Shown here piece by piece: positions 1 through 64,000 of a DNA stretch of 64,000 nucleotides. The notes under the pieces are model-generated. The model made no database searches. It saw only the letters and a list, made by a program, of their open reading frames with translations, and was not told where the DNA came from. Position numbers and translations under genes: made by a program. Origin of the DNA: Glaucostegus cemiculus (taxonomy: Eukaryota); assembly GCA_976551045.1 (NCBI GenBank), contig CDPCPM010000010.1, positions 37,386,001 to 37,450,000 of the forward strand. Direction: 5' to 3'. The stretch's first letter is position 1. Each line of letters begins with the position of its first letter.

Positions 1-90
1 GGGGCTGTGCAGATCACTAGTCACATCTCAGCTTCTGATTCGTGAACAATGACTGACCAATTAGGATGCAGCTCATTTCTTAAAGCAAGA
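1..90 (-). promoter_or_regulatory. Partial A-type protocadherin promoter module of a variable exon lying off the left edge of the window
   Basis: ggggctgtgcagatcac..tcacatctcagcttctgatt...gaccaattag...tttcttaaagc is collinear with the A-type promoters at 14336-14433, 32606-32702 and 50833-50929. The first CCAAT box is mutated (ATTCG) and the spacer is 11 bp shorter. Confidence 0.8.
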
Positions 91-3000
91 ATTGCTTGAC
101 TTCGGACAAGTTGTTTTATTTATTACTGCACACATGAAATTTCATTCAGCGTTTTCGATTATTTAGATTTTTGTGGAAATTTAGCTCTGGAACCATAGTT
201 TCAGGAACTACAATGCAGTAAATATCTTCGCGATGAAGTGTAACCAAAAGTCTTCAGGAACATGATTAAACTGAACAACCAACTCGTCTTGCTGAGTAAC
301 AAATTGCATGCATGATCCATGTGCATTTATTTTAACGTTGTTTTACAATGGTGGCCATCTGACAATTAATTTTCAGGGAATACTGTCTCCCCCCCCCCCA
401 GAATAGAACCAAATCAAATAAAATACAGATACAATGCCAAGAGGAATATCCTCTTTCTGCTTCATTTCAAACCGAGAGCTCAATGGTCACTTCACTTCTA
501 AAAGAAATATGTTTCTATCCCTGATGTCCACAATAAACCGCCAAGTAACTTTGATTTTATCTATTGCTTTTCATAATTTAAGGGCTAGCACGGTAATACT
601 CTCCATTGTTTTTTTTCTGAAGCAAAATCTGATGTGATTGCCTTTGTTTAAAATCTAAAGCAGATTGCCATCATGTCTACCACTGAATCTCTTTCCAGTC
701 CTGATATTTGACCAGCTCATGAATGATCGCAGCATTAATTTACAGAATACGCATCTACTGTTTCGAAAATCAATACTCTCTCATGCTCTTTAAATTTTTC
801 TGGTGTTATTACTGCTCTCTGTTTAACTTTGACGAGGAATCATACAAGATCTCTTAGAACTTCTGTTGCAATAACTTTATGAGAGATCCATCAGCACAAG
901 GACCACACTAGTTCATGAAGATGTTTTTCCACCACGTTTTTAAGGGCAGCGTGGGATGGGTAAAACACTGACCCAGCCAAGATAAAATAAGCATTACTTT
1001 GGTCATTGGAAACTGCTAATATCCAAAGCAAAGCCTCTCTGCAGGAATTTCTTGGGATTCTGCATGGACTCCTTCATCTCTGACACTTCCTCAAATATCA
1101 GCACGATATTATGTGTGGGAAAGTTTCCTGCTGACCACACGATGTTGATATACCCACTTGGAACAAGCTTTACACAATGTTAATGCTTTGAATCTTAACT
1201 GAGGGAACATTCATATATATCTTAATTGCTCGGCATTGGCCACCCCCAGCAACAGGTATTACCTGTAACAGGTAACAGATAACCTTTTCTCCTCGAATTC
1301 AGTCACAACAGCAGCAGTGAATCAACCTCATATTAACGTGGGGTTTCACCATTTATTAAAAAAAATATACTGAATTCACAACATAAGTACGGTGGTTATG
1401 ACAAGACACCAGAAGTTGACTTTCAAGGGGTTCATCTGGTCTTCTGCCACTTAGAATTCCCAAATCGGTATTTTGTTTGTGTATTTTCCAAATACCTGGA
1501 CGCGTTACTTTACCAACACCAAGAATTCTTAACGCCATTCAGATCAAAGCCTTCAGCTTGATTAGCAGAACAATGATTATATAAGGATGATAACATCATG
1601 TCCTCTTCAGTTAAATCTCACTATTTATCAGAAGCATTTGAACGAGCTACATACATACTTTGACTGCGGAAGGAGACCACATCTTTGGTTTCTATGGGGT
1701 TTGGAAATTCTCCGTGTCATCTCCATCGCTACGAAGGAGGTAATCAGAAGATTGTTAGAATATTTTCCACTTGCTTTTATAGTTAAACCCACCAACACAC
1801 AGGAAGTTGCATGGTGTCCGGAACAAAACTTCCAGACTGATTCACAAAATACTTCAGATATTCATGCAGTCTGCCAGAGAATGCGCTACCATAAATCACT
1901 GATACCACTTCAGAAACGTTTCCAAGGTTTCACACTCTCCTACCAAGAAGTACAAGAGCAACAGCGCGGTGCCAGCACCACAGATTCGTGTCACATACGC
2001 CCCCCACTCCCGAAATCATGTCATTGTTCCTTCATAATCACTGAGTTAAAACCATGGAGCTCACTCCGAGTCATTGGAATGAGCGTACTCTTCTACTCGG
2101 ATCATTATGGGACAAGAGGGCCCTTCAGCACAACGTGCACCGTGGCAATTATCGCCGAGTAAAAAAAAAATTACTGACTTAGTGACACCTATTTCCAAAC
2201 ACATAGATAAAGACAAGCATTTCAAATGAAATTAACTGAATCTAAAAAAAAAAATACGGGTCATTTTGTGTTGAATTGTGGCACCCAGCCCCGTAATGTT
2301 ACTGTACTGGGAGACAATTATGTTGCATAAGTGTTCTGTAGTCTATGATTATCTGCATGCGCAGAGCACTTCCGCATGAACGTCTCAACGCTAAGAGTAC
2401 AGACGATCGCAACGTTATTCAGTATTGCTCCAGTTGAAAGATTTTTGCATTTTCACGGTCATATAGGACATCCCAGTGCATTTTCCAACCGACATCTAAC
2501 TTCTGTATTACTGATGTGATTCAGGAAACATTGCTGGCAATTTGTGCACAACCAGTTTTCCAAACAACATTGTGATACTAGCAACACAAAATGTTTTTGT
2601 TTTGTTTTAAAAAAAAACTGCTAAGTATATTCACTATAGATATCACCTCTGGGTTTCCCCGAAATAGCGGAAATGTGTTACCTCCACCCCAAAGAGAAAT
2701 CATGCCTCCAAATACTATCGCCTCTATAAGACCCTATCTCTTCTATACATAACACTTTTAGTCGAGCAGTGACGCAATAAAAACGCTTTTTGTTGTTCTC
2801 TACTGGTTTCTAGAACACTATTTCAACCCGTAAAGTGTATCTAAAAGAACGACCAGAAAATCTTGGGGATACTCAACATGGAAGGCAGAATCTGTGGAGA
2901 GGGGACCAGTGTTAACTTTTAGGCTCAATGCCCTTAGGTCAGCAATGGAAAAGTGAGAGAATTAAGCAAGTTTTAAGGCACACAGAGTTTGGGTGCGTTG

Positions 3001-3965
3001 GTTGGGGGAGTGGGGGATGGTCACAAAGCAAAGGACATCTCTGTGATAGGATAAAGAAAAGCCTTGATTGTGTTAGTGACATCAATGCTTTTGCTGCCGC
3101 CTAAGAGCCGTATGAAAGACTGTAAGTAGAGGCCGATAAATGAAGGTATTGAGAGGGTATTACAAAAAAAAAGTGTTGGAACAGTGAAGTATAGAGTAAA
3201 GCAGTTGCTGGACACCTGAAACAAAAGATACTGCTGGAATCATTTAGTTGATGAAGCAGCATCGGGAGAGAGAAAAATCAAGTGTGTGTTGCAAATGGAT
3301 CTCCACGTATCAACATTGGTCGGTTCTGAAACACAAAACAGAAGAACAACTGTGTGAAATTGTTGGAATGCATGTTAAATCCGAAGGCGAGGATATGCCT
3401 GGGTGGTGGATGAAATGCTCCTCCCCAACTTTACGCTAAGCTTCATTCAGAGTAAGGGTCCATGAAGAGCCGGAGTGGAATGCAGAGTTAAAGTGAAGAG
3501 AGAGTTAAAGCTCGAGGTGCACGAAAGAACTGGAGAGAAGAATTATGCACTCAGTATACGTTTGTATTCCCCATGGTAACGGAGACCACGCTGTGAGCGC
3601 AGAGCGCAATGAATTCGTTTGGAAGGATTGCAACTCAATTGGCTCCTCGACTGCAAAGACTGAAGTGTTACCAATTGACCTAGAGATAAGAATATTAGAA
3701 AGAAGAATTAAAAATACCACTCAAAACCATGCCGAATTCCAGAACATTAATGAAAAGCTGTTTGGTGATATATATGAATTATATTTAATCATTACCCTAA
3801 AAAGAATCACCACGAGACAAAATCGAAGTCGGGAAACAAATTTAGAGCAGAAAACAGAATTTTCCTTTCAGCAATACCTTTCATCCTGTTTACGTTAATA
3901 TACTGGTTGTTCACCAAAATACTTGCACTTTTAAATCAAACCTGCCAGTGCTTTCTTCTCGACAA

Positions 3966-6435
3966 TCACCTCACCTCAGGAACGCTGTAGTTCTCAGAAT
4001 TCGCCATTGCAATACCGTCTTTTCCGATAGATTCGTTCAGCACAACATTTTTGTCTGCAGAAGACCTACTCGTGTTGGGTTCGGCGAAATTTATCTTGGG
4101 AGACTGCAATGTCGAACACGATTCGTAGCGGACACGTTGAGAGAGAGGGTCGCCCCCAAATACATCAACATAGTTTGGTGGTATCTGAAGGCTTTTACTG
4201 GCCTTCTGAATTACATTCAAAGAATGTCTTGTTTCAAAGCAACACAATCTACTTAAGGAATGATGCTGGTATAGCATACCGTTCCTGTTTTTGTGAACTT
4301 TAACGGCGAGGATGACTAAAATTATGAGGAAAATGCTAGATGTTATTCCCAAGGCCATAACCAAGTGAAGGCTCAGTTCAGGAGTGAACCTCGGATCTGA
4401 GGACGAACTGCTGACACTGGAGAACGTTTCACTGTCAGTCCCAACCACAGATAATACTATAGTCACAGTGGCAGAGAGTGACGGAATTCCATTATCTTTT
4501 ACCACAATCACCAGCCTTTGAATAGAGGCATCGTTGTTCAAAAAACGACGGATAGTCCAGATCGCGCCAGTGTCTGCGGAAACAGCAAAGGGATCATGAT
4601 GGGTGGCTTGAAAAATCTGATAAGATTGTCGAGCATTCTGACCAGAGTCGGCATCAGTGGCCGATACCTTGACAACCAAGGAACCTGGTTCTGTGAACCT
4701 GGATATTGTTTCTGCTGCTGTTGACCTATATTCGGGTAGAGGATGTGTAATCACTGGAGCATTATCATTCTGATCAAGGATAACAACATTTACTGAGGCA
4801 TTACTGTAGAGTGCTGGTGCACCAGAATCCCACATTTGAACTTGCACCTGGATGTTTTTCAATTGCTCGTAGTCAAATGTTCTCCGAGCATATATGACAC
4901 CATTGGTTAAATTAATTGAGACATATGTGGTTACTGACGTATCCTGAACCTGAGACTCCAGGATAGAAAAGTTCAGTCGGGCGTTTTCTCCAATATCTGG
5001 ATCGAAGGCTGTCAGGGAAAATATGGAAGCCCCAACAACGTTGTTTTCCATAATATTTGTCGTGTATACCGGGCGAGTAAACCTTGGTGCATTGTCATTT
5101 ATATCTGAAACCTATACCCGGATGGTTTTTTTTGGAGGTGAGGGGAGGTTCCCCTGCATCCGTACATATTATACTAATATCATACTTGGGGGTGTTTTCG
5201 CGGTCTAGTAAATGTTGTACAAGAATTCTGTAATAGTTTTTTAAAGATGAATCTAGCTCAAAGGGTAGTTGGTTAGAAAGTTGACATTCCACGTGACTAT
5301 TTTGTCCGGAATCTCTGTCTTCTGCACTGAACAGAGCTACTATGGTCCCCAGGGGAGCGTCTTCCTAAACAGTCGTTGACGATGACTGCAATATTATCTC
5401 CGGTGCGTTATCATTCACGTCAACAACTTCAACCAATACGTCACAGTACTCCGGTATAGCGCCCGATCCCTTATCCATCGCCTGTATGTTGATCTCAAAG
5501 ACATTGCTTTCTTCATAGTCTAAGTTCCCTTTGAGTCTGAGTTCACCAGTTTTGGAGTGCAGATCAAAAATTTTACGGGCATTAGAAGAGATATGGCCAC
5601 GGAAAGAATACATTATATCGCCATTGAGGCCATCATCCAAGTCAGTGGCGTTCAATGTGATGATCAGTGTCCCTTTTGGTGCAGATTCCAATAGACTGAC
5701 TTTAAAAGCAGACTGAGAGAAAACATGCGCGTCGTCGTTTACATCCTTCACTATGACTATAATCTGAACCGTTCCCGATCTTGGAGGCAAACCGCCGTCC
5801 CTGGCTGTTAACGTTAAACTATGTGTTGACATTACTTCTCTGTCCAAAGGCTTTTTCAGTAACAATACTGGCCACTTGCCCTTCCCACTGCGCATTTGCA
5901 CATCCAGAGCAAAATATTCGTTCGGCTGCAGCTGGTAGGTTTGCAAGGCGTTAGTGCCAATGTCCGGATCCAGAGCCGATTCAAGAGGAAATCGCATTCC
6001 CGGTGCTGCGAACTCCGAGATTTCAAGGCGAAACTGGCTTTTTGGGAAACTGGGAGCATTGGCATTTACATCAAGAATCTCCACTTCCACCTGGTACAAA
6101 CTCAGGGGGTTTTCAAGCAAAACATCAAACGATAAGCGGCAATCGAGGTTCGACCCACAAAGCAGTTCTCTGTCGATTACTTCCTTCATAAATATAACCC
6201 CATTCTCCAGATTTACTTCAAAATACTGCTTCTTTGGACCGGTCGCGATCCGCAAACTGCGAGCCTTCAGCTGCTTTACATCCAATCCTAAATCGGCTGC
6301 GATGTTCCCAACAAAGGCTCCCAGCTGCAGTTCTTCAGGAACAGAATAACGAATCTGCCCAGACAAAATACCCCACGAGGAGAACACACAGCACAACAAT
6401 TGGCATTTTAGCAACCAATATATTTTATATTTCAT
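3966..6435 (-). pseudogene. Clustered protocadherin variable exon B1, disrupted
   Basis: ORF pieces 5365-6435, 5095-5292 and 3966-5051 align with intact paralogs. Lesions: in-frame TAG at 5365-5367 (Ser in paralogs); +1 frameshift in the T8 run at 5126-5133 (paralogs ttttctt); second TAG at 5112-5114 (CAG/GAG in paralogs). Ca-binding motifs are also decayed (DVNANAP, DVNDDAH). Splice donor at 3975/3974 is intact. Confidence 0.9.
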
Positions 6436-6619
6436 TGCCAGTAGAAGTCATTCCAATGGATTCAGGCCCTGACTGTATTCTTCATTGTCCTTTTAGCAGC
6501 GACTCGACGTTAGTTAGAACAAAAGCGATACAGAAAATACTCGTTCCTTTTGCGAATCTCGAAATATTTCATTTATATGCTAGCATTGTGCATTAAGTTG
6601 TGGGAGCATTCCTGCAGAA

Positions 6620-6790
6620 ATCCCACGGAGCTGCTGGCTCTCCAGTTTTTACTGTGTCTGATCTGATGTGATGGTTGCTGTGTCGTGAAGGGGGCTGTCC
6701 GGATTACTAATCACAGTTCAGCTCCTGATTGGTGGAGACTCTCATTGATATTCGTCCAATCAGGATTCTGCTCGTTTCTTAAAGCTAGAA
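6620..6790 (-). promoter_or_regulatory. B-type cPcdh promoter module (B1)
   Basis: CGGAGCTGCTGGCT; TGAAGGGGGCTG (6686-6697); inverted repeat TCCTGATTGG (6723-6732)/CCAATCAGGA (6756-6765); TTTCTTAAAGC (6775-6785). The module is shared by all paralogs about 190-350 bp upstream of the ATG. Confidence 0.8.
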
Positions 6791-9074
6791 GTACTTAAGG
6801 TTGCGCAGATTTGTTGTATTTATTGTTGTGCAATTAAAATTTCTTTCAGCCTGTGGCTATTTCTTTTCTGTTCTGATCACTGTTATGCCGCTTCGAGTTC
6901 TATGAATCGACCTACCAATTAATATATTAAAGGAAAAGTTTGAAGAAACTCATGAACAAACAGAGGAAAAGATGAATATAAAGAACATGTTGGGCTGAAG
7001 GATGTCATTCCAGTTATGACACGCGTAAGTTATTCTTCCTTGAACTTCCAGAAATTACCTCTTGATGGTGAGTCCAGGAAGCAAAATTATCTGTGTGGAT
7101 TCAAGAAGGAATTATCACTTGGTTTTATTGAGTCGTTCTAGTTTTCGAATGGATAGTTATCTGGTTGATTTACTAGAATGAACAAACTCGAATGTAGAAA
7201 TATGAAGTGTTGGAACTCTGATAGAAAGGCATAAAATGCACGAAGAACTCATTGGGTTGCCAGCATCTACAGGAAGAGAAACGTATCACTTTAAAGAACC
7301 TGTTGAAAACAATAATATTCGAATGCATATCACTAATTTATGGTATATAACTGCCTTCTCTCACTGAATTTATATCTTTCATTAACACCCAATTCTTCAC
7401 TGTGACCAGGTGATTTCCGTTGACTATATCTTATAAACTGAAGTTACCTGTTCGCGATTAAAGGCATGCTCGTTTATTTTTTTAGCAGTTATCAGTGGTT
7501 TTATTAGATGACATTATTCCAAATCACTGCGTTTTTGCTAGGTTCTGTCACCTTACAGCCATCCTGTATTCATGTTTGTCACTGGTCAAGATTCACTGAC
7601 GGTTTAGTTCTGTAGTCAATTTATCTGGCGAATTCTGTGTGGTGCAGAGGTCATAGGCATAAGTTAACTAGCACGAGAATTATTCTCGTATGAATTGATG
7701 AAGTAATTTTCCGTGAATATCTTCATGTAGAGAATTGAGGAAAGTGTTTACGAATATTTGTATTAACTTCAGCTCCCACTGAGTTCAGGATGGTCTATTT
7801 TGGAAAGGAAGGCAAGTACTAACTATTTTATTTTGAAACGAAAGATAGTGTGTGTGGTAAGTGAACAAGTTCTGAAAAAATGCAAACAGACCGAACCTTG
7901 CTGACCAAGTGCTGCCATCTGAACTTGGCATTCATGGCTTGAGTGCTCCCGTGTTTGGGTCTCGAGACTGAAATCGTTTTCTGCTTATCTAAGGTAACTC
8001 GGACACCACGGCTCAGGAGACTCCCCTGAAGTTGAGATGGGCTGTAAAATTTACCATCTGTCATATTTCCCAGGTTTTGTTTTTGTATAGCTATTGGATG
8101 TCTTTGAAATATAGAAGCCTCTAAAAGCAACTTTAATTAAACTGTTTTTTAAAGAACGAAACTTTCAACAAAGACATTGGCAAGCATCCTCAAATAATAA
8201 AAAAAAAACAAAAAAAAAGTGACGTTGAACTGAATCAAAATAATTATAAACCCTGCATGGACAATCCTAAATTTCTTTTGAAATCCATGTCATCTCAGAT
8301 TCGATGGGAGTTCTGATTATTTATCTTCAGGAACTTCACCAGTCCTTGTAAACGTGGATAACTTGTTAATGATCACGGACTATCAGCTTACGATCAGAAT
8401 TCCACTGCAGCAATCAGTATCCATATGCAGTAAGTCCAGACCAATGTTTTGCAAGTATGCCATGACAAATGGCATTCAATCATGGCAAATACTGGGTATT
8501 GGCCACCAGCTAAAGCAGAAGGATATCCCGCTCTCTTGAATTCAGTCATATTACATCCAGTTACATCCTGAGTTTCATTACTGATCAGGAATTTAACCAA
8601 GCCAGTTAGACTAATATATGTAATACGATAGACTGATACGTAGCAATGGCAGTCTCACTTCATGATTTCACATAACTTTTTCACCATCTGCAAAGTACTG
8701 GTCCGTATTGTGAATGAAGAATATTAACTTGCATAAGTGTGTAACTTCAACAACATTTAAAAAGTATTATACTATCGGAACCTTGATTCATGTTTGTTTA
8801 ATCATCAGATATATCTAAAATATTCACTCTACCCTCAGATGAATGCATTGCAGCATCTCCCTCCAGCTGTTTCAAGAGAATCTGTAACCTAGGTGGATCA
8901 CAACAGATGCACAACATTCATGCATCTCCTATGAAGTATAACATCATCGAGCTATCAAAGATTCCTTCCAGCCAGAGTATTCTGACGAAAAACATACAAC
9001 CATCTCAGTGTAATTACTGGCAGGATCTCAGAATAGGTGCATGAGTGTGCTGTCACCACATACATTGTGGTTAG

Positions 9075-9710
9075 TTAAGAAGGTCATCGAGTCACAGAGC
9101 AGGGAAACAGGCCCGTTGTCGCCCATCTTCCATGTCAACCATCAAATATGCACCTACACTAATTCGATTTACACGGACTTCGTCTGTGGTCTTCCGTGCT
9201 TTGGCAATTCAACCGCTCACCTAATTTATTTGCTAAATGTTGTTAGGTACCAATTTCAACCACACAAGCAAGCAGCACATTCCTAATTCCCAAAATCCTC
9301 TGGCTGAAAAATTCTCTCAAATTCCCTCTCGAACATATCTTGGACATGTCTCTTATAGGGAAAACATTCTTCCTACCTAGGCAGTCTATGCTTTGCTTAA
9401 TATTGTACATCTCAATCTTGTCTCCCTCAGCCTCCTCCAATCCAAGGAAAACAAGCACAGACTCTCCAGTCTCTTATCGCTACTGAAACTCTCCACTTCA
9501 GGCAACATCGTGGTGAATCTTCTCTGAAAGCTCGACAGTGAAATGGCGTTCTTACTATTGTGTGCTGACCAGAATTACATTCAGTGCTCCAGATGTGGCT
9601 GAGCCAATGTTGTACAAAGCTCTACTATAACTTATGCTTTTCTACCATATATCCTGGGAAAGGAAGCCGAATATTCCGTATACTTCCTTCATCACTGCTG
9701 CCACATTGAA
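9075..9710 (-). mobile_element. Old, decayed CR1-type LINE 3' remnant
   Basis: Antisense CR1 3' signatures (caggcaacatcgtggtgaatcttctctg, gaccagaattacattcagtgctccagatgtgg). Paralogous copies at ~28.2-29.0, 46.1-47.1 and 63.2-64.0 kb. Confidence 0.6.
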
Positions 9711-9766
9711 TAAGGCAAGACTACCTTATTCATTTATTCAAACCTTTTGCAATAAAGACCAACATT

Positions 9767-10080
9767 GGCACGGTAGCATAATGGTTAGCACAGTGCTTTA
9801 TAGCTCCAGAGACCCGGGTTCAAATCCGGCCACTGTGTATAAGGAGTTTGTATATTCTCCTCGTGTCTGTGTGGCTTTCCTCTGGGTGCTCCGGTTTCCT
9901 TCCGGTGCTCCGGTTTCCTCCCACATTCCAAAGACGTACGGGTCAGGAAGTTAAGGGCATGCTATGTTGGCGCCAGAAGCATGGCAACACTTGTGGGCTG
10001 CCCCCCAAAATCACTACACAAATAATGTATTTCACTGTGTGTTTCGATGTACATGTGACTTAAAGATCTTATCTTATCTA
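9767..10080 (+). mobile_element. tRNA-derived SINE (V-SINE/HE1-like)
   Basis: tRNA-like head with A box (tagcataatgg) and B box GGTTCAAATCC (9817-9827), core 'gggtgctccggtttcctcccacattccaaagacgt', and a (cttat)n tail. Absent from the paralogous site near 28.83 kb. Confidence 0.8.
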
Positions 10081-10278
10081 ATGATTCGACGGATGCAAAG
10101 GTCCCTATGATCCACAATACTCCCTAGGGCACTACTAATTACCATCTGTGCCCTGCCCTTACTTATCCTCTCAAAATGCATATCCTTGCTCCTATTAGGA
10201 TTACATTCCTTCAAATTCTGTTTCTCTGCTTCATTAATGCCTTCTCAAGAGTAAATACTGATATTAAATAAATTAGAT

Positions 10279-10720
10279 CATAGAACACTACGGCACAGTA
10301 CAGGCCATTCGGCCCACAATGTTGTGCCGACATTTTATTCTGATCTTAGAAATATCCAACCCTTCCCTCCCACATATCCCACCATTTCTCTATCATTCAT
10401 GTGTCTATCTAAGAGTCTCTTAAATGTCCCTAATTTATCTGCACCCACAACCTCTGCCAGCAGTGCATTTCACGCACCCACCATTCTCTGTGTTAGTCAT
10501 TGTCACCCTAGGGAAAGGTCTCTGACTGCCCACTCGATCTATGCCTCTTATCATCTTGCACAGCTCTATCAAGTCACCTCTCATCCCCCTTCTCTAAAAG
10601 AGAAAAACCCTAGCTCACTCAACTTATCCCCATAAGACATGCTTTCCAATCCAGGCAACATCCTGTTAAATCTCCCCTGCACCCTCTCTAAAGCATCCAC
10701 ATCCTTTCTGTAATGAGATA
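10279..10720 (-). mobile_element. CR1-type LINE, 5'-truncated 3' end
   Basis: Antisense 3'UTR 'catagaacactacggcacagtacaggccattcggcccacaatgttgtgccga' followed by the ORF2 C-terminal region. Absent from the paralogous site near 29.03 kb. Confidence 0.75.
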
Positions 10721-10879
10721 AGAAGATAAGATTCTGCCCAGTTTGGTGGCACATTCGAAGACGAACTAATAAACAATCACACTACAGTGTCAGCATTGGA
10801 ATTGCATTATGCTGATAGCAATTGCTCTGCATCTAACGATGGTGTTAATGCGAACGCAATGAACATAGACGTCAGTTAG

Positions 10880-11070
10880 CATTTTGTACGAGCTGGTGGA
10901 GAGGAAAACCGTGTTAACGTTTCAAGATGATCACTTTTCATCCAGTTCTGTTGTAAGCTGATCGGCCTGAAACGTTAACTCTTGTTTCTCCCTCCGTGCA
11001 TACTGCCTATCCTGCGCATGTTCCTGCGTTCCATAGTATATTTCAGCTTTCCAGAATCTGCATACTTTTC
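10880..11070. mobile_element. Decayed Penelope-derived short repeat with a hammerhead-like relic
   Basis: 'gtgttaacgtttcaag...gcctgaaacgttaactcttgtttctc...tactgcc' resembles the end of the Penelope element at 36.3-36.45 kb. Paralogous copies at ~29.2-29.35 and ~47.5-47.6 kb. Confidence 0.45.
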
Positions 11071-11614
11071 TTTGCTTTTGGAATACGAAGGGAATTGATC
11101 TACCTGGGATGACCCGATAAAGTAACACTTTACAATAATGAATGGGGAAGACTGCACAGAAAAGATGATGACTGGAAATTAACCAAGAGGTTGAAGCTAC
11201 CTAAACTACTTTCAAAGAAGTATTCATAACGTCTGCAACATGCTTAAGCGATATGCTTGTAAAATTATCACAAGGTAGATAAAGCGTATATTGCAGAAAC
11301 TGTGCGCTAGTTTTAACACAGATAGTATTTCCGTAAATTTTAAATACCTTAGAAAACCGCAAACAAATCATGGCGGTTTCCAGGGCCCTTGGTAAAGTCA
11401 TTATATCAGTGCCATGGAGTTACATACAATTGCAAAGAACGAAATTCTTTGAAACGTCAATCCATAGAGCAATTGGACACCCTGATTCGAAACAGTATGC
11501 TTACTCAAATTGTAACTGTAATGTTCATTTCATCCCAGTACAGAAACTACAATGACCCGAGTTAACCAGATCAATGTACTTATCCAAATTAAATAGCTGG
11601 GGATTTCCTCTCTT

Positions 11615-14092
11615 TCAGAAGCACCTCACCTCAGTAGTTACATTGTAATTGGACACCTCAGGATTCATCATTCCAGGATTTTCTTTACCATCAGGTTTCT
11701 TCAGCGTATAATGCATTGCTGCAGGTAAAACATACGCTTGAGGGGTCGTGAAGTCTCTCTTCACGGACTGCAGTGTTGAACACGACTCGTAACGAAAACT
11801 TTGAGAAAGTGGATCACCTCCGAATACCTCAACATAGTTCGGTGGTATCTGAAGGCTTCTACTGGCTTTTTGGATTCCATTCAAAGAATTTCTTGATTCC
11901 AAACAACAACAGATATTCTGCGAACTGTATTGGCATCCCACACCATTTCTGTTTTCATAAACCTTAACAGCGAGGATAATTAAAATCACGAGGAAAATGA
12001 TAGACGTTGTCCCTAAAGCTATGACCAAGGAAAAGTTCGGATCGGGAGTGAACTCATAATTTTTAGAGAAACCGGTGGCACTGGAGATCGTTTCACTCCC
12101 TTTCACAGATAATTCTATGGTCATGGTTGCAGAGAGAGATGGCATTCCATTATCTCTTACAACAATCACCAGCCTTTGCTTTGAAGTATCCTTGCTCCGA
12201 ATACCACGGATAGTCCAAATTTCCCCCGTGTCTGCTGAAATAGTGAACAGATCTCGATGTGTAGCCTGAAAAATGTGATAGGACAGCTGGGCATTTAGAC
12301 CAGCGTCGGCGTCAGTAGCTGATACCTTGACAACAAGGTATCCAGGTTCTGCAAACCTGGATATTGTCTCCATTGCTGTTGATCCATATTGTGGCAAAGG
12401 ATTCACGATCACTGGGGCGTTATCGTTCTGATCAAGGATAACAATATCTATTGACACGTTACTGGTGAGAGGTGGGAGGCCAGAATCCTGCACCTGAACG
12501 TAAATCTTAAAATCTTTCAGGTTCTCGTAGTCAAAAGATGTCTGAGCAGATATGACACCGGTCTGTGAGTTGATGGAGATATACGAGGCAATGGAGGAAT
12601 CCTGAACCTGAGATGGCAGGATGGAAAAGTTCATTCGGGCGTTCTGTCCTTTATCCGGGTCAAAAGCAGTCAAGGAGTATATGGAAGCCCCAATGACGTT
12701 GTTCTCCATGACGTGCACCGTATGTACCGCCTGCGTAAAGCTCGGTGCGTTGTCATTTACATCTGTAACATCTACATGAATTGTTTCCGTTGATGTAAGA
12801 CTGGGGTACCCTGCATCCATGCATATTATGGTAATGTCATACCTGGAGGTAGTTTCGCGATCCAGCGGATGCTGTATAAGCAGTTTATAAAAGTTTTCCA
12901 CAGACAAATCCAGCCTAAATGGCAGTTTATTTGAAATTTCACATTGTACCTGTCCATTTTGTCCAGAATCTTTGTCATCTACGCTTAGTAGTGCCACTAC
13001 CGTTCCAATTGAGGCATCTTCTGGCAGTGTGCTTGACGTAGTTGTTGACGTTATGTCAGGAGAGTTATCATTCACATCCATAACATTCACCAGCACATCA
13101 CAGTGCTGGGGCATTGAGTCAGGACCATTATCGACTGCTTGTATATTAATCTCAAAAAATTTGCTTTGTTCATAGTCTAAGTGCCCTTTCAGTCTGATTT
13201 CACCAGTTTTGGAATCAATGCTAAACATTTCAAGAACATTTTTCGAACTATAGCTGCTGATCGAGTACGTTATATCTCCATTAGGTCCATCGTCCAAGTC
13301 AGTGGCGTTTAATGTAATGATCAGGGATCGTAAGGGAGCCGATTCCAACAAACTCACCCTATAAACCGACTGCGAGAAAACAGGAGAATTGTCGTTCGCA
13401 TCCTTCACTGTGACTGTTACCTGGACCTTGCCCGATCGCACAGGGACTCCGCCGTCTTCAGCTAAAAGCGTGAACTCGTGACTTGTTACTGCTTCTCGAT
13501 CCAAAGGACTCTGCAGCACCAACACCGGCAACTTTCCTTTCCCACTGCGTTCTTGTACATTAACAATGAAATATTCATTTGGATGTAGCTGATACGTCTG
13601 CAAAGTATTAGTTCCAATATCCGGATCGTGAGCGGCTTCGAGGGGGAACCGCGCTCCCGGTGCAATGATTTCGGAGATTTCCAGGCGGATCACGCTTTTG
13701 GAGAAACTGGGAGCGTTGTCATTTACATCGAGTATCTCCACTTCCACCTGGTGCAGACTGAGGGGATTTTCAAGCACAACGTTGAAGGATAAAACGCAGT
13801 CGGTGCTCGGCCCGCAAAGTTCTTCCCTGTCGATTCTTTCATTCACAAATAAAATCCCTTTCTCTAAATTTACCTCAACATAGCGCTTCCTCGGACTGGG
13901 CGCCACCCGCAAACTGCGAGCCGACAGCTCTTTTAAATCTAGACCCAAATCGATGGCGATATTCCCAACAAAGGCCCCTCGTTGCAACTCCTCGGGAACA
14001 GAATATCGAATCTGCCCAGAAACTAGATTCGAGATGGAGAACAAACAGCAAAACAGTTGGTATTTCAGCAGCCAATATATGTTATATCTCAT
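11615..14092 (-). CDS. Clustered protocadherin variable exon A2 (825-aa ORF; spliced exon ends at 11630)
   Basis: Signal peptide followed by GQIRYSVPEE, EC1 Cys-X5-Cys (LCGPSTDC), six cadherin repeats with DRE/DYE and DxNDNxP motifs, TM helix, cytoplasmic tail. Donor GAG|GTGAGG at 11630/11629. Confidence 0.95.
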   Translation of the reverse strand: MRYNIYWLLKYQLFCCLFSISNLVSGQIRYSVPEELQRGAFVGNIAIDLGLDLKELSARSLRVAPSPRKRYVEVNLEKGILFVNERIDREELCGPSTDCVLSFNVVLENPLSLHQVEVEILDVNDNAPSFSKSVIRLEISEIIAPGARFPLEAAHDPDIGTNTLQTYQLHPNEYFIVNVQERSGKGKLPVLVLQSPLDREAVTSHEFTLLAEDGGVPVRSGKVQVTVTVKDANDNSPVFSQSVYRVSLLESAPLRSLIITLNATDLDDGPNGDITYSISSYSSKNVLEMFSIDSKTGEIRLKGHLDYEQSKFFEINIQAVDNGPDSMPQHCDVLVNVMDVNDNSPDITSTTTSSTLPEDASIGTVVALLSVDDKDSGQNGQVQCEISNKLPFRLDLSVENFYKLLIQHPLDRETTSRYDITIICMDAGYPSLTSTETIHVDVTDVNDNAPSFTQAVHTVHVMENNVIGASIYSLTAFDPDKGQNARMNFSILPSQVQDSSIASYISINSQTGVISAQTSFDYENLKDFKIYVQVQDSGLPPLTSNVSIDIVILDQNDNAPVIVNPLPQYGSTAMETISRFAEPGYLVVKVSATDADAGLNAQLSYHIFQATHRDLFTISADTGEIWTIRGIRSKDTSKQRLVIVVRDNGMPSLSATMTIELSVKGSETISSATGFSKNYEFTPDPNFSLVIALGTTSIIFLVILIILAVKVYENRNGVGCQYSSQNICCCLESRNSLNGIQKASRSLQIPPNYVEVFGGDPLSQSFRYESCSTLQSVKRDFTTPQAYVLPAAMHYTLKKPDGKENPGMMNPEVSNYNVTTEVRCF

Positions 14093-14264
14093 TTCCAGGA
14101 GAAATCATTCCAATGGTTTCAACCCGAGACAAAGCCTTTTAACAGCGATGTAATTTAAATGGGACAGATACGACACAGAAAATATGTATACCTCCTTGCG
14201 ATTTAGTGGAATGTGTTCATTTAAATGCTCTCATGTTGCTGCAATTCGAAGTGAATCGTGCACA

Positions 14265-14435
14265 AATCCTCCGGAGCTGCTGGCTATCCAGTTTTCACGG
14301 CGTCTGATCTTACGCGATGGCGGCTGGGTACTGAAGGGGGCTGTGCAGATCACTTGGCACATCTTAGCTTTTGATTGGTAGACAACGTAACAATCGTATC
14401 TGATCAATCCGAGTGCAGTTAATTTCTTAAAGCAA
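14265..14435 (-). promoter_or_regulatory. A-type cPcdh promoter module (A2)
   Basis: CGGAGCTGCTGGCT; TGAAGGGGGCTG (14332-14343); TGATTGG (14372-14378); degenerate second box (TCAAT); TTTCTTAAAGC. Confidence 0.8.
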
Positions 14436-19067: not shown

Positions 19068-19170
19068 AACACATTCTGAAAGACGTATGGGTAGGTTAAT
19101 TTGGGGGTTTTAAATGGGCGGCGTAGAAGGGGCCTGCTACCATGCTGTAAATAAAATTTAAATAAAAAAA
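19068..19170 (+). mobile_element. 5'-truncated SINE 3' fragment
   Basis: 'acattctgaaagacgtatgggtaggttaatttggg...gctgtaaataaaatttaaataaaa' matches the 3' half of V-SINE-like elements. Absent from the paralog at ~35.13 kb. Confidence 0.5.
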
Positions 19171-19625
19171 ATAACTTTGTACATAAATGCTATGTTGATG
19201 ACATGAAACCGAACGTTGGATTTCGGTGGGTTTCCTGCCGTCTTTTTGCCTGCAAGAGGGAGTAAATCAGCATTTTTCCAGAACATTCTCCAGTTGTCTG
19301 CATTCGGAACTCTGGCAACACTCACATATCTCAGCAATATTCGGCACAAAGCTCTCAGCAAGTTGAGCTGGGCATAAAATACCCGAAAAGAATTAGGCCC
19401 ACCACAGAATGCATTGGAAATATTCATTGATACTCTTTCAAAGATGTCTCCCAAATCCCTCCATCCAAGGAGTAAAAATAGACTTAACAGCATGATGAAT
19501 CCTATGTGGCATTAAGTATCACCATTTAGTACAAACAAAAACTCACTATTATAAATACTTTGGCTCCGATATGAAATCAGAGACTGTGTTTCTGTGAGTT
19601 TTGCAGCCTTTCTGTAGACTTTAAA

Positions 19626-48123: not shown

Positions 48124-50586
48124 TTAGATGTACCTCACCTCATTATTTACAGTGTAGCTGGAGGCTTCAACCATTATCAATCCCGAATTCTCTTTCCCAA
48201 TACTATTCTTCTGGGCACAATCCATTTTTGCAGATAAGCCGCACGTCTGTGGGTTCGTGAAGTCTCTCTTCACCGACTGCAATGTTGAACACGATTCATA
48301 ACGGAAACTCTGAGAAAGTGGATCACCTCCGAATACCTCAACATAGTTCGGTGGTATCTGAAGATTTCTACTGGCCTTTTGAATTCCATTCAGAGAGTTC
48401 CTTGCTTTCAGACAACAGCAGACATTCTGAGAATCACAATTGTGCCCCACTCCATTTCTGTCTTCACGAACTTTAACAGCCAGAATAACTAAAATCACGA
48501 GGAATATGACAGATGTTGTCCCCAAGGATATGACCAAATAAAGGTTCAGATCAGGTTTGAACTCTGGATTTGTAGACAAACTAGTGGCACTGGAGATCGT
48601 TTCACTTCCTTTGACAGATAACACTATAGTCACAGTGGCAGAAAGGGGTGGCGTTCCATTATCTTTTACGACAATCACAAGCTTTTGCTGAGAAGCATCC
48701 TTGTTCCCAATACGTCGGATAGTCCAAACTTCCCCTGTGTCTCCTGAAATGGTGAACAGATCGTGATGGGTAGCCTGCAAAATATGGTAAGACAGACGGG
48801 CATTCTGACCAGCGTCAGCGTCAGTACCTGAAACCTTGACAACGAGGTATCCCGGTTCAGCCAGCCTGGATATTGTCTCCATTGCTGTTGAGCCGTATTG
48901 GGGTAAAGGATTCAGGATCACTGGGGCGTTGTCGTTCTGATCAAGGATAACAAAATCTATTGTAACGTTACTGGTGAGGGGCGGGACTCCAGAATCCTGC
49001 ACCCGAACTTGAATCTGGAAGTTTTTCAATTTCTCGAAGTCAAACGATCTCTGAGCAAATATGACACCAGTCTGTGAGTTGATGGAGACATATGGGGATC
49101 CGGATGAATCCTGAATTGAAAAATTCAGTCGAGCATTCTGTTCTGTGTCTGGATCGAAGGCTGTCAGGGAGAATATGGATTTCCCAATAACGTTGTTCTC
49201 CATGACCCTTGCCGTGTATACGGGCTGCGTAAACCTTGGTGCGTTATCGTTTACATCCGAAACCTCCACGCGAATTGTTTTCTTGGATGTGAGGGGAGGG
49301 ATTCCTGCATCCGTGCATGTTATAATAACGTCAAATCTGGAGGTAGTTTCACGATCCAGTGCATGTTGGAGAAACAGTTTATAAATCTTTTTCAGAGAGG
49401 AATCTAGTTTAAACGGTAGTTTGTTTGAAATTTGGCATTGTACCTCTCCATTTTGTCCAGAATCTTTGTCATCTACGCTGAGTAGCGCCACAACTGTTCC
49501 GACTGTGGCATTTTCAGGCACTGTATTTGACAAGGATGTCAACATAAGGTCAGGGGCGTTATCATTTACATCTGCGACATCCACTAACACAGCACAGTGC
49601 TGAGGCATAGGGTAAGGGCCATTGTCGATTGCTTGTATATTAATCTCAAAATAATCGTTTTCTTCATAGTCTAAATGCCCTTTCAGTCTGATTTCACCAG
49701 TTCTGGAATTCACGTCAAATAGTTCATGAAATTTTCCTGAATTATGACCGCTCAGTGAATATGTTATCTCTCCATTAGAACCATCGTCCAAATCAGAGGC
49801 GTTTAACGTAATAATCAAAGTTCCTACAGGAGCTGATTCCAACAGATTGACACTATAAACCGACTGCGCGAAAACAGGCGAGTTGTCGTTCGCATCCTGC
49901 ACTGTGATTGTTACTTGGACTTTGCCTGATCTTACAGGGACTCCGCCATCTTCAGCAAACAAAGTTAAATCGTGGGCTGGTATTGTTTCTCTATCTAATG
50001 GTCTCTGCAGCACTAACACTGGCAACTTTCCCTTCCTATTGCGTGACTCTACATCAAGAATGAAATATTCATTCGGAACGAGCTGGTATGACTGTAGGGA
50101 GTTAGTGCCAATGTCCGGGTCGTGAGCGGACTCGAGGGGGAATCGAGATCCCGGTGCCATAATCTCAGAGATTTCCAGGCGGATCTGGCTTTGGGGAAAA
50201 CTCGGAGCGTTGTCATTTACATCGAGTACCTCCACTTCCACCTGGTGCAGACTGAGGGGATTTTCAAGCACAACGTTGAAGGTTAAAACGCATTCGGTGC
50301 TCGGCCCGCAAAGTTCTTCCCTGTCGATTTTTTCATTCACAAATAAAATCCCATTCTCCAAATTTACGTCAACATACTGCTTCTTCGGACTGGGCGCCAC
50401 CCGTAAGCTGCGAGCCGACAGCTGCTTTAAATCTAACCCCAAATCAATGGCGATATTCCCAACAAAGGCGCCTCGTTGCAATTCCTCGGGAACAGAATAA
50501 CGAATCTGTCCAGAAACAAGATTCCAGCGGGAGAACACACAGCAAATCAGTTGGTATTTCAGCAGCCAATATATGTTATATCTCAT
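48124..50586 (-). CDS. Clustered protocadherin variable exon A6 (820-aa ORF; spliced exon ends at 48139)
   Basis: Intact ORF with six cadherin repeats (5-aa deletion in EC5), TM and cytoplasmic tail. Donor GAG|GTGAGG at 48139/48138. Confidence 0.95.
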   Translation of the reverse strand: MRYNIYWLLKYQLICCVFSRWNLVSGQIRYSVPEELQRGAFVGNIAIDLGLDLKQLSARSLRVAPSPKKQYVDVNLENGILFVNEKIDREELCGPSTECVLTFNVVLENPLSLHQVEVEVLDVNDNAPSFPQSQIRLEISEIMAPGSRFPLESAHDPDIGTNSLQSYQLVPNEYFILDVESRNRKGKLPVLVLQRPLDRETIPAHDLTLFAEDGGVPVRSGKVQVTITVQDANDNSPVFAQSVYSVNLLESAPVGTLIITLNASDLDDGSNGEITYSLSGHNSGKFHELFDVNSRTGEIRLKGHLDYEENDYFEINIQAIDNGPYPMPQHCAVLVDVADVNDNAPDLMLTSLSNTVPENATVGTVVALLSVDDKDSGQNGEVQCQISNKLPFKLDSSLKKIYKLFLQHALDRETTSRFDVIITCTDAGIPPLTSKKTIRVEVSDVNDNAPRFTQPVYTARVMENNVIGKSIFSLTAFDPDTEQNARLNFSIQDSSGSPYVSINSQTGVIFAQRSFDFEKLKNFQIQVRVQDSGVPPLTSNVTIDFVILDQNDNAPVILNPLPQYGSTAMETISRLAEPGYLVVKVSGTDADAGQNARLSYHILQATHHDLFTISGDTGEVWTIRRIGNKDASQQKLVIVVKDNGTPPLSATVTIVLSVKGSETISSATSLSTNPEFKPDLNLYLVISLGTTSVIFLVILVILAVKVREDRNGVGHNCDSQNVCCCLKARNSLNGIQKASRNLQIPPNYVEVFGGDPLSQSFRYESCSTLQSVKRDFTNPQTCGLSAKMDCAQKNSIGKENSGLIMVEASSYTVNNEVRYI

Positions 50587-55925: not shown

Positions 55926-55929
55926 CTAT

Positions 55930-58197: not shown

Positions 58198-60666
58198 TCA
58201 TCTCACCTCAGGAACAATGTATTTTTCAGAATTCGCCATTCCAGTATTTTCTTTCTCAATAGTTTCGTTCAGCACACTTTTTTTCTCTGCAGGTGTTCTG
58301 AACTTGCTGGGGACGGTGAAATCTCTCTTCGTAGACTGCAGTGTCGAACATGATTCGTAGCGGAATCTTTGGGAGAGAGGGTCGCCCCCAAATACTTCAA
58401 CATAGTTTGGTGGTATCTGAAGGCTTTTACTGGCCTTCTGAATTCCATTCAAAGAATGTCTTGAGTCAAGGCAACAACAAATACCCATGGAATGATGCTG
58501 GTGCACCATACCATTCCTGTTTTTGTGAACTTTAACGGCGAGGATGATTAAAATTATGAGAAAAATGCTGGATATAATTCCCAAAGCTATAACCAAGGAA
58601 AGGGTCAGTTCAGGAGTGAACCTCGGATCTAAGGACGAATTGCTGACACTGGAGAAGGTTTCACGATCAGTCCCAACCACAGATAACGCTATAGTTACAG
58701 TGGCATAGAGTGATGGAATTCCATTATCTTTTACCACAACCACCAGCCTTTGATTAGAGGCATCCCTGCTGAAAATTTGACGTATGGTCCATATTTCGCC
58801 AGAGTCTGTGGATATAGTAAAGAGATCATCATGGGTGGACTGTAAGATCTGATAGGAGAGTCGAGCATTCTGACCAGAGTCGGCATCAGTGGCCGATACC
58901 TTGACAACCAAGGATCCTGGTTCTGTGAACCTGGGTATTGTTTCTATTGCTGTTGACCCATATTCGGGTAAAGGGTGTGTAATCACTGGAGCATTATCAT
59001 TCTGATCAAGGATCGCAAAATTCACTAAGGCATTACTGCTGAGCGCTAGCGTGCCGGAATCCCGCACTCGCACTCTAATTTGGAAATTTTTCAATTGCTC
59101 ATAGTCAAAAGTTCTCTGAGCATATATGACACCACTCGCCGAATTAATCGAGACAAAAGAGATTACAGAGGTATTCTGAACTCCAGACTCCGGGATAGAA
59201 AAATTCAGTCGCCCATTTTCTCCAATATCTGGATCGAAGGCCGTCAGGGAAAAAATGGAAGCCCCAATAACATTGTTTTCCATAACATTTGCCGTGTAAA
59301 CCGGGCGAGAAAACTTTGGTGTGTTGTCATTTATATCTGAAACCTCTACCCGGATGGTTTTCTTGGAAGTAAGAGGAGGGTCCCCCTTATCAGTGCATAT
59401 TATGGTAATATCGTACTTGGGGACCTTTTCGCGATCCAGCAAATAGTGAGTGAGGATTCTATAGTAGTTCATTCCAGATGAATCTAGCTCAAAAGGAAGT
59501 TGATTTGAAATCTGACATTGTACTTGACCATTTTGTCCAGAATCTCTGTCTTCTGCTGTGAACAGAGCTACGACACTCCCGGGGGCACTATCTTCGGATA
59601 TTGCAGTTGAGGAAGATCCGGGTATCACCTCCGGCGCGTTATCATTCACATCAACAATTTCGACTAATACGTCGCAGTAACCGGGTATAGCACTAGAACC
59701 TTTATCCGTTGCCTCTATATTGATCTCATAGATGGTGTTCTCTTCATAGTCCAAGTTCCCTTTAAGTCTGATTTCACCAGTTCTGGAGTTTAGATCAAAG
59801 ATCTCACGGGCACTAGCAGAAATATAGCTGCCGAATGAATACATTATCTCTCCATTGAGGCCATCGTCCAGGTCAGTGGCATTTAATTTGATGATCAAGG
59901 TCCCTTTCGGTGCAGATTCCAACAGAATGACCTTGTAAACCGACTGAGAGAACACAGGCGCGTTGTCGTTTACATCCTTCACTATGACTATAATCTGAAC
60001 CGTTCCCGATCTCGGAGGCAGACCGCCGTCCTTGGCGATAAGCGTTAAATTGTGGGTTGGCGTCGTTTCTCTATCTAATGGTTTCCCTAGCAACAAAACT
60101 GGACGTTTTCCCTTCCCACTGCGCAGTTGTACGTCGAGAGTAAAATATTCGTTCGGCTGTAGCTGGTAGATTTGCAAGGCGTTAGTGCCAACATCTGAAT
60201 CCAGTGCCGGTTCAAGAGGAAAACGCATTCCTGCTACGGCGAACTCCAAAATTTCAAGGTGAAACTGGCTTTTTGGGAAAGTTGGAGCATTGTCATTTAC
60301 ATCGAGAATCTCCACTTCCACCGGATGCAGGCTCGGGGGGTTTTGAAGTGCAACGTTCAATGATAAGCGGCAATCGAGGTTCGACCCACAAATCAGTTCT
60401 CTGTCGATTATTTCCTTCACAAATAAAATCCCATTCTCCAAATTTACATCGAAATACTGCTTCCTTGGACTGGGCGCTACCCGCAAACTGCGAGCCTTCA
60501 GCTGCTTTACATCTAAACCTAAATCAACTGCGATTTTCCCAACAAAGTCTCCCAGCTGCAGTTCTTCAGGAACAGAATAACGAATCTGCCCAGACACAGT
60601 ACACCACGACGAGAACACACAGCACAACAATTGGCATTGTAGCAACCAATGTATGTTATATTTCAT
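58198..60666 (-). CDS. Clustered protocadherin variable exon B7 (822-aa ORF; spliced exon ends at 58207)
   Basis: Intact ORF with EC1-EC6, TM and cytoplasmic tail. Donor GAG|GTGAGA at 58207/58206. Confidence 0.95.
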   Translation of the reverse strand: MKYNIHWLLQCQLLCCVFSSWCTVSGQIRYSVPEELQLGDFVGKIAVDLGLDVKQLKARSLRVAPSPRKQYFDVNLENGILFVKEIIDRELICGSNLDCRLSLNVALQNPPSLHPVEVEILDVNDNAPTFPKSQFHLEILEFAVAGMRFPLEPALDSDVGTNALQIYQLQPNEYFTLDVQLRSGKGKRPVLLLGKPLDRETTPTHNLTLIAKDGGLPPRSGTVQIIVIVKDVNDNAPVFSQSVYKVILLESAPKGTLIIKLNATDLDDGLNGEIMYSFGSYISASAREIFDLNSRTGEIRLKGNLDYEENTIYEINIEATDKGSSAIPGYCDVLVEIVDVNDNAPEVIPGSSSTAISEDSAPGSVVALFTAEDRDSGQNGQVQCQISNQLPFELDSSGMNYYRILTHYLLDREKVPKYDITIICTDKGDPPLTSKKTIRVEVSDINDNTPKFSRPVYTANVMENNVIGASIFSLTAFDPDIGENGRLNFSIPESGVQNTSVISFVSINSASGVIYAQRTFDYEQLKNFQIRVRVRDSGTLALSSNALVNFAILDQNDNAPVITHPLPEYGSTAIETIPRFTEPGSLVVKVSATDADSGQNARLSYQILQSTHDDLFTISTDSGEIWTIRQIFSRDASNQRLVVVVKDNGIPSLYATVTIALSVVGTDRETFSSVSNSSLDPRFTPELTLSLVIALGIISSIFLIILIILAVKVHKNRNGMVHQHHSMGICCCLDSRHSLNGIQKASKSLQIPPNYVEVFGGDPLSQRFRYESCSTLQSTKRDFTVPSKFRTPAEKKSVLNETIEKENTGMANSEKYIVPEVR

Positions 60667-63242: not shown

Positions 63243-63990
63243 TCATAGAGTCATAGTTCACAGTACAGTCTCTTTGTCCATGCCAATTTGCAACAATCCA
63301 TCTACATTCATCCCATTTACACGAATATGGCCATTAGTCTTCCGTGTTCTGATAGTTCAAGCACTGGCACGCATATTGCTGAAATGTTGAAACTCTTGCT
63401 GGGTGTTCCTGATTACCACCACACTCTGGGTGAATAAATATTTTTCCAGATATCGTCTAAATCTCTTGCCCATCAAAACAAACAACTCCGCTCTACACTC
63501 TTCTCAGTCCTGATGTAGGGTCTCGACCTGAATACCCTACTATCTATTTGCTTCCACCGATGCTGCTTGACGCACTGAGCCCGTCCAGCAACGTTCTGCT
63601 CCAGATTCCAACATCTGGTGTTGAAACACAAACCTTTGTTCTCTCGTTTTCGACACTTCCGTTAGAGGGAAATGTTTCCACTTATTTCCCCTCTCTGTAC
63701 ACTTTATGACTTTGCATACCTGAATGATGGTCTCCTTTAGACTCTGCTGTTCCAAGGAATAAAACTCCAGCATCTATAGTCATTCTTATAAGTGGAAATC
63801 TCCACTCAAGGCATACCTGGTGAATCTTATTTGTACCATTTGCAGTTGAATTGTGTCATTCCCATCTTCATGTGAGCAATACTACACATAGTACTTCATT
63901 AGTGGCTTAACTAATGTTTTATAAACTTGTAGTATAACCTTCCTGCTTATGTCCTAAGCACCAGCAAATGAGATCTTCCATCACTAACAT
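63243..63990 (-). mobile_element. Old CR1-type remnant with a Penelope-derived insert (paralog of 46.1-46.8 kb)
   Basis: Antisense CR1 3' signatures; the insert carries cagtcctgatgtagggtctcgacctgaa. Confidence 0.55.
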
Positions 63991-64000
63991 CATAACCCCC

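What the first reader, a model, noticed from the sequence alone, without database searches (positions are those of the whole stretch)
1..64000. Strictly alternating two-class protocadherin array built from a two-gene cassette
Seen: the exons alternate B-A-B-A-B-A-B, with a further A-type promoter at 1-90. The classes differ consistently in signal peptide (MKY..CQLL vs MRY..YQL), EC1 (EELQLG/CGSNLDC vs EELQRG/CGPSxxC), EC6-TM linker (VVGTDSETF vs VKGSETI), 5'UTR and promoter spacing. Known: cPcdh variable exons are chosen by alternative promoters and give neurons cis-dimeric identity codes; mammalian gamma-A and gamma-B exons are also interspersed. Inference: this lineage expanded a fixed A+B pair, which could be a paired or heterodimer-favouring identity system, or just a by-product of the duplication unit size.
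Basis: partly seen in the sequence, partly recalled or inferred. Interest (0 to 1): 0.7.

Follow-up and report, generated by a model that had tools for sequence, protein, structure and literature searches.

The report
Ray protocadherin genes copied in pairs
In a ray's cluster of neuron-identity (protocadherin) genes, eleven genes of two types alternate, likely because an old two-gene block was copied several times; the pattern ends just outside the window, so it is probably a duplication footprint like the one known in land vertebrates and not a pairing system.

Summary
The alternation is real. Seven minus-strand variable exons run B-A-B-A-B-A-B, and A and B are two clades (100/100). The window lies in a batoid Pcdh-nu subcluster (Pristis 83-89%; constant exons match elephant shark nu8). 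The spacers are also period-2 (B-to-A 6.2-8.4 kb, A-to-B 3.7-4.6 kb; 27 of 30 cross-type pairs share nothing), as expected from tandem copying of a 16-19 kb two-gene unit. It is not strict or fixed: alternation covers 11 exons, and the promoter at 1-90 starts six single-gene A copies. One A and one B, in different units, are pseudogenes while their Pristis orthologs are intact. Gene models of other rays show B-A neighbours, but also B-B and A-A-A-A. EC6 has 0 of 106 class-fixed positions, and five of seven named cis-interface positions are invariant in both classes. Every exon has its own promoter and splice donor. Interspersed gamma-a/gamma-b genes, explained by block duplication, are published for mammals, anole and coelacanth (PMC2764143). 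Verdict: an ordinary mechanism, probably an independent case in rays. The scan's earlier notes cover ray promoters, not this alternation.

The parts
58207..60666 (-). Variable exon B1 (signal peptide, EC1-6, TM, variable cytoplasmic part), intact, ends at GAG|GTGAG donor
   Evidence: Pristis ortholog P0002 88%
48139..50586 (-). Variable exon A1, intact
   Evidence: Pristis ortholog P0053 92%
41358..43817 (-). Variable exon B2, intact; junction of the two repeat blocks (upstream spacer of block I type, downstream spacer of block II type)
   Evidence: Pfam Cadherin_2, Cadherin, Cadherin_C_2; Pristis P0001 89%
29905..32364 (-). Variable exon A2, intact
   Evidence: Pristis P0136 88%
23132..25591 (-). 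Variable exon B3, intact
   Evidence: Pristis P0004 89%
11630..14092 (-). Variable exon A3, intact
   Evidence: Pristis P0048 89%
3975..6435 (-). Variable exon B4, pseudogene (stop after codon 356, frameshift near codons 428-436)
   Evidence: intact Pristis ortholog P0003 87%
1..90 (-). Promoter of A'1, the first of six single-gene tandem A-clade exons beyond the window
3965..26221 (.). Collinear copy of 23122-44451 at an offset of about 16-19 kb, exons and spacers included (block II repeat)
   Evidence: self-BLASTN; spacer matrix
41304..46798 (.). B2 plus upstream spacer, collinear with 58154-63984 (B1 plus upstream spacer) at about 17 kb (block I repeat, continues beyond the window)
36262..39061 (.). 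About 2.8 kb insertion in the B2-A2 spacer, absent from the B3-A3 spacer; likely a decayed mobile element (not identified)
   Evidence: gap in collinearity; no Pfam hit for its longest ORF

Best explanation
These are variable first exons of a ray's protocadherin-nu cluster, and their A/B alternation is likely the footprint of repeated tandem duplication of a 16-19 kb unit holding one B and one A gene, with no pairing function. Shown: two clades; period-2 spacer homology in two blocks (B6-A6-B5-A5psi-B1-A1-B2 and B2-A2-B3-A3-B4psi); a switch to single-gene repeats of A just 3' of the window; a separate promoter and splice donor for every exon; nu-type constant exons 67-121 kb beyond the window's 3' edge. 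Inferred: once a B-A-B-A arrangement existed, unequal crossing-over between like genes moved in steps of two genes and kept the alternation, whereas at the 3' end it moved in steps of one. The copying predates the split from Pristis. By analogy with mammalian clustered protocadherins, each promoter is chosen separately, each exon is spliced to the shared constant exons, and isoforms mix in cis with little regard to genomic neighbours.
For: Spacers: B-to-A 6.2-8.4 kb and A-to-B 3.7-4.6 kb. Between the two types, 27 of 30 pairs align 0% (others 1, 2, 13%). Within a block, same-type spacers align 45-99%. A'|A' spacers align 89-99% with each other and 52-80% with the B4psi|A'1 spacer, so the monomer run grew from the last A. 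Clades 100/100 on DNA with both pseudogenes placed, and monophyletic in separate EC2-3 and EC5-6 trees (96-99.8). Pristis has distinct best-match orthologs at 85-92% for B1-B4, A1-A3, A5 and four A' genes, plus an A6-B5 fused model at 88-89%. Independent loss of one A and one B. Fused RefSeq models read B-A2-B-B-A'-A'-A' (Hemitrygon), B-A1-B-B and A'x4 (Mobula birostris), B-A2 (Narcine). 0 of 106 EC6 columns are class-fixed among 27 A and 16 B batoid proteins. Positions equal to mouse gammaB7 555, 558, 560, 562 and 595 are identical in 15 of 15 intact A/B genes, and 570 in 14 of 15 (numbering from PMC8901172). The same arrangement and explanation are in print for gamma-a/gamma-b (PMC2764143).
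Against: A and B trees are not significantly congruent in either phase (Mantel 85 of 120 and 20 of 120 permutations; 5 pairs each). Same-type spacers align only 2-18% between the two blocks (0-4% for the B4psi|A'1 spacer), so the common origin of the two blocks rests on weak signal. B-A adjacency is seen in three other batoid orders and 9 of the 11 alternating exons are intact with pairwise dN/dS 0.21-0.28, so selection keeps both classes. Two EC6 positions do differ in this genome: 532 is N in 4 of 4 alternating A and H/Y in 5 of 5 B (but H in 6 of 6 A'), and 554 is Y in 10 of 10 A and S in 5 of 5 B (but Y in two skate B shown). No expression or binding data.
Confidence: 0.82

Rival explanations
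1. The arrangement is a by-product, but A and B have since become functionally distinct subfamilies with a mild preference for cross-class cis dimers, as measured for mammalian subfamilies. The preference would not depend on genomic neighbours.
For: Mouse cPcdhs prefer interfamily cis heterodimers (PMC8901172, passages). A and B are 61-76% identical per domain against 71-89% within class. Positions 532 and 554 differ in this genome. Both classes are kept in skates, stingrays, mantas and sawfish.
Against: 0 of 106 class-fixed EC6 columns. The five other named positions are invariant, and 532 does not track class (A' share H with B). The mammalian residues Y532 and V560 are not kept in these genes, so the mapping is uncertain.
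Confidence: 0.11
2. A selected paired system: each B-A unit is co-regulated or yields an obligate heterodimer, so the array had to grow in pairs.
For: Alternation over 11-12 exons (2/924 for a 6/6 order). B-A adjacency in Pristis, Mobula, Hemitrygon and Narcine models. Class-specific promoter spacing.
Against: Six A' singles follow directly. Partner genes stay intact after loss of A5 or B4. Each gene has a full promoter of the same layout. B-B neighbours appear in two ray models (a model may skip a gene).
Confidence: 0.04
3. The period-2 pattern is maintained mainly by gene conversion between like genes, or arises from an assembly error.
For: EC2-3 and EC5-6 trees differ in where shark genes fall, which can reflect conversion.
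Against: Copies are only 83-89% identical in DNA, there are no Ns, and they have separate orthologs in Pristis. Spacers, not only exons, repeat.
Confidence: 0.03

Closest known systems
Chondrichthyan clustered protocadherin nu subcluster (elephant shark Pcdh-nu; Yu et al. 2008, seen only as cited in PMC2764143, PMC4978886 and PMC7811963; the paper itself was not held)
   Same: 3'-most subcluster of the locus. Constant exons match C. milii nu8 (74, 51 and 80% in three pieces). C. milii nu8, nu9, nu13, nu15 and nu17 are among the hits.
   Different: The A and B clades hold only batoid sequences; the six elephant shark sequences sampled fall outside. No two-class alternation is reported for nu in the passages read.
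Interspersed Pcdh gamma-a / gamma-b genes of mammals, anole and coelacanth (PMC2764143, section 7 part 1 read)
   Same: Two paralog classes interleaved in one subcluster. The paper proposes simultaneous duplication as a contiguous block, the mechanism found here.
   Different: Different subcluster and lineage. The paper calls interspersion a seemingly unique feature of gamma, so this is probably an independent case. Here the run is more regular (11 exons) and the spacers still show the unit.
Mouse cPcdh asymmetric cis dimers with interfamily preference (PMC8901172, passages and section 25)
   Same: Same EC1-6 architecture; EC5-6 align to gammaB7 and gammaA4 structures (5v5x, 5szq).
   Different: No class-fixed EC6 difference between A and B across batoids. 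Positions 560 (S) and 532 (N/H) differ from the mouse carrier residues in both classes.

Membership tests
Clustered protocadherin variable exon | One large exon encoding signal peptide, six EC repeats, TM and short cytoplasmic part | tested here: met
   820-825 aa ORFs; Pfam Cadherin_2, five Cadherin stretches, Cadherin_C_2 below cut-off; six of seven intact
Clustered protocadherin variable exon | Tandem array, same strand, own promoter per exon | tested here: met
   74 exon loci on one strand in the fetched stretches; shared upstream boxes before all 17 A/B exons; promoter activity itself untested
Clustered protocadherin variable exon | Splice donor and shared downstream constant exons | tested here: met
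   GAG|GTGAG at the end of all 17 A/B exons; constant exons with AG/GT ends at C10:37319310, 37307242, 37264898; Pristis RefSeq isoforms of both classes carry the tail
Clustered protocadherin variable exon | CTCF-bound CSE upstream of each exon | tested here: inconclusive
   A recalled CTCF-like 14-mer gave 51 matches against 57 expected, none on the shared boxes near -236; a loose pattern is not a matrix scan
Clustered protocadherin variable exon | Stochastic promoter choice in single neurons; homophilic trans binding | not testable with these tools
   Needs single-cell RNA and binding assays
Pcdh-nu subcluster | Constant region orthologous to elephant shark nu; 3'-most position | tested here: met
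   tblastn with C. milii nu8 tail, E 4e-31 for the last exon; last of three PF15974 hits on C10
Pcdh gamma-a/gamma-b | Orthology of A and B to gamma-a and gamma-b | not tested
   No tree with tetrapod genes was built. A and B nest among chondrichthyan nu genes, which argues against orthology.
Obligate paired / carrier-dependent cis system | Strict 1:1 arrangement and joint retention | tested here: not met
   6 B to 11 A; six A' in a row; unpaired pseudogenes
Obligate paired / carrier-dependent cis system | Class-specific EC6 cis-interface residues | tested here: not met
   0 of 106 class-fixed EC6 columns; named positions shared; the full interface list (Goodman 2017) was not held

The most novel reading that the evidence does not exclude
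Rays independently evolved a gamma-A/gamma-B-like pair of interleaved protocadherin subfamilies in the nu cluster, with complementary cis-dimer roles (the 532 and 554 differences in EC6 as candidates). Interleaved two-class arrays would then be a convergent design of neuronal identity codes, not only a duplication accident.
Probability: 0.07. Interest if true: 0.62.

Novelty: new member of a known kind. Interest (0 to 1): 0.24.

Why it matters
It gives a clean, datable example of how the size of the duplication unit shapes a protocadherin array: two-gene steps and one-gene steps lie side by side, with the unit still readable in the spacers. It probably shows that two-class interleaving is not limited to the gamma subcluster. 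If A and B did prove to be preferred cis partners, it would be a convergent solution to isoform mixing, but the sequence evidence does not point that way.

Tried and rejected
Co-duplication test by Mantel on third-position distances: not significant in either phase; five pairs give little power, and unequal crossing-over need not keep a phase. RNA: no RNA holder listed; the one run was probably DNA of a relative and showed nothing on splicing. Gene order from Pristis accession numbers: isoforms are sorted by length, so uninformative. CTCF-like pattern: no excess. A LINE-like RT query from the neighbouring region found nothing in the window. ORFs at 17826-18470 and 36955-38064: no Pfam family; 31856-32470 is antisense to A2; none treated as genes. 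A second alternating run elsewhere in the locus: none seen among 74 exon loci (60 intact, 14 broken or partial) by nearest-neighbour DNA match; only 504 kb was fetched contiguously, the rest around the hits. A batoid-only origin of the A/B split: supported by the full-length FastTree (99) and weakly by EC5-6 (71), but in the EC2-3 tree one shark gene sits beside A (95) and one beside B (90), so the age of the split is open. Structure and complex prediction were not run: one job cannot compare A-A, B-B and A-B, and a pass would reflect likeness to the solved gammaB7 dimer. Rows left out of trees: proteins over 1100 aa, non-chondrichthyans and several shark species; Hept_P0029 was dropped by the tool and Hemisc_P0038 was 36% filled through my trimming. 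Papers not held: Yu 2008, Noonan 2004, Wu 2001, Goodman 2017, Hara 2018; any of them, Hara 2018 above all, may describe related arrangements.

Full report
Observation. The window holds seven protocadherin variable exons on the minus strand, six intact (820-825 aa) and one broken (3966-6435: stop after codon 356, frameshift near codons 428-436). In the direction of transcription they read B(60666) A(50586) B(43817) A(32364) B(25591) A(14092) B-psi(6435). Upstream regions are 79-81% alike within a class and 65% between classes, with class-typical spacing. A DNA tree of 21 exons gives A and B as clades at 100/100, with both pseudogenes placed. Protein trees of EC2-3 and EC5-6 agree.

What the locus is. 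The window is G000:C10:37386001-37450000, and a search with one EC1 found 78 matches, most in one 1.4 Mb array. The nearest named proteins are from the sawfish Pristis pectinata (89% to B2, 83% to A2), then other rays and skates, then sharks and elephant shark nu genes. So the animal is a batoid (inferred). Constant exons matching elephant shark nu8 and Pristis isoforms lie 67-121 kb beyond the window's 3' edge. All 17 A/B exons end in the same GAG|GTGAG donor and have the same upstream box layout. These are alternative first exons of the Pcdh-nu subcluster.

How far the alternation goes. Full order: X, B6, A6, B5, A5-psi, [B1, A1, B2, A2, B3, A3, B4-psi], A'1 to A'6, Y, six divergent exons, constant exons. 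Alternation extends four exons upstream and stops one exon downstream. The promoter at window 1-90 belongs to the first of six A-clade genes repeated singly every 5.1-5.8 kb. The 12-exon run is unlikely by chance (2/924), but over all 17 A/B genes it is marginal (714 of 12376 orders). No other alternating run was seen among the 74 exon loci in the fetched stretches (coverage upstream of 37.6 Mb was partial).

Mechanism. The non-coding DNA repeats with period two. B-to-A spacers are 6.2-8.4 kb and A-to-B spacers 3.7-4.6 kb, and like genes are 16.0-19.2 kb apart. Of 30 cross-type spacer pairs, 27 share no alignable DNA. Same-type spacers align over 45-99% within two blocks: B6 to B2 (about 17 kb period) and B2 to B4-psi (about 18 kb period). 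Between blocks they align over only 2-18% (dot-plot rows). The B4-psi|A'1 spacer is the same kind as the A'|A' spacers (52-80%), so the last A was then copied alone. Tandem duplication of a two-gene unit is the direct reading of this pattern; unequal crossing-over as its cause is inferred. A Mantel test for matching A and B histories was not significant (85 of 120; 20 of 120). That result is neutral to mildly against a fixed cassette phase.

Age and other species. Pristis has distinct orthologs at 85-92% for B1-B4, A1-A3, A5 and four A' genes, including intact versions of both pseudogenes (14 Pristis proteins tested). So the array is old and two genes have since been lost from different units. 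Pairwise dN/dS is 0.21-0.28. Both classes occur in skates, stingrays and mantas. Mis-fused RefSeq models preserve exon order: Pristis A6-B5; Narcine B-A2; Mobula birostris B-A1-B-B and A'x4; Hemitrygon B-A2-B-B-A'-A'-A' (6 batoid models of 11 examined, one of them outside the A/B region). Such models can skip genes, so B-B is a hint. Whether A and B split before or after sharks and rays parted is unresolved.

Function. Mouse cis dimers are asymmetric and favour cross-family partners, with Y532, L555, K558, V560, V562, A570 and R595 named (PMC8901172, passages and section 25). Mapped through that alignment, positions 555, 558, 560, 562 and 595 are identical in 15 of 15 intact A/B genes, and 570 in 14 of 15. 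Position 532 is N in the four alternating A genes and H/Y in B, but H in all six A'. Neighbouring 554 is Y in A and S in B here, but Y in the two skate B proteins printed. Among 27 A and 16 B batoid proteins, class-fixed columns (85% rule) number 4/100, 4/109, 0/108, 2/105, 3/110 and 0/106 for EC1-6, and 5/113 after EC6. There is no sequence sign of a dedicated A-B cis interface, though the mouse map may not transfer. In mouse, duplicated exons with identical promoters were expressed stochastically, and no sampled cell expressed both copies of one isoform (PMC4151104, passages), which fits independent choice.

Comparison with what is known. PMC2764143 (section 7 part 1 and passages) describes gamma-a and gamma-b genes as interspersed in mammals, anole and coelacanth, proposes block duplication, and calls this seemingly unique to gamma. 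The ray case is the same kind of pattern in another subcluster. Searches (listings, plus passages of PMC4978886, PMC7811963, PMC1852091 and bioRxiv 10.1101/2025.06.08.657570) showed no description of A/B alternation in batoid nu genes. Five key papers were not held, and no supplements were read. The scan's own notes returned nothing on alternation.

Verdict. Real, explained by an ordinary two-gene tandem duplication (0.82), local and not strict, with little support for a paired identity system. New member of a known kind; interest 0.24.

Noticed in passing
Upstream of each exon, e.g. window 50775-50910 (A1) and 1-90 (A'1): Promoters carry an inverted ATTGG...CCAAT pair (28 bp apart in most B, 27-30 in A) and two C-rich boxes; a loose recalled CTCF pattern shows no excess and misses these boxes.
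   Followed up: partly
G000:C10:37264700-37275700 (L037-L038): The nu constant region has two alternative tails: two extra small exons (37275689, 37268272) and a last exon read in two frames, matching two Pristis isoform types.
   Followed up: partly
G000:C10:37306980-37307210 (L002): The second constant exon encodes a run of 4-residue repeats (QREV/QCEV/QRDV type), also present in Pristis and elephant shark.
   Followed up: no
EC5 of A genes (window A1 48124-50586 versus A2, A3): A 5-residue deletion is shared by A6, A1, all A' and two skate A proteins but not A2/A3, marking two old A subtypes that match the two repeat blocks.
   Followed up: partly
window 36262-39061: About 2.8 kb insertion in one spacer, purine-rich on the plus strand; a short frame has a YIDD motif like a reverse transcriptase (likeness recalled); no Pfam hit for the longest ORF.
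   Followed up: partly
window 46800-46920: Very high-copy short repeat (summed contig depth about 38,000 in run X1), SINE-like.
   Followed up: no
P0138, P0149, P0150, P0180, P0202: Several database entries named 'protocadherin Fat 4-like' or uncharacterized are fused runs of variable exons, i.e. likely annotation artefacts; they are useful for reading gene order.
   Followed up: yes
G000:C10:38043000-38166000 and 37507000-37571000: Groups of broken or partial variable exons: 14 in the 74 loci examined.
   Followed up: no
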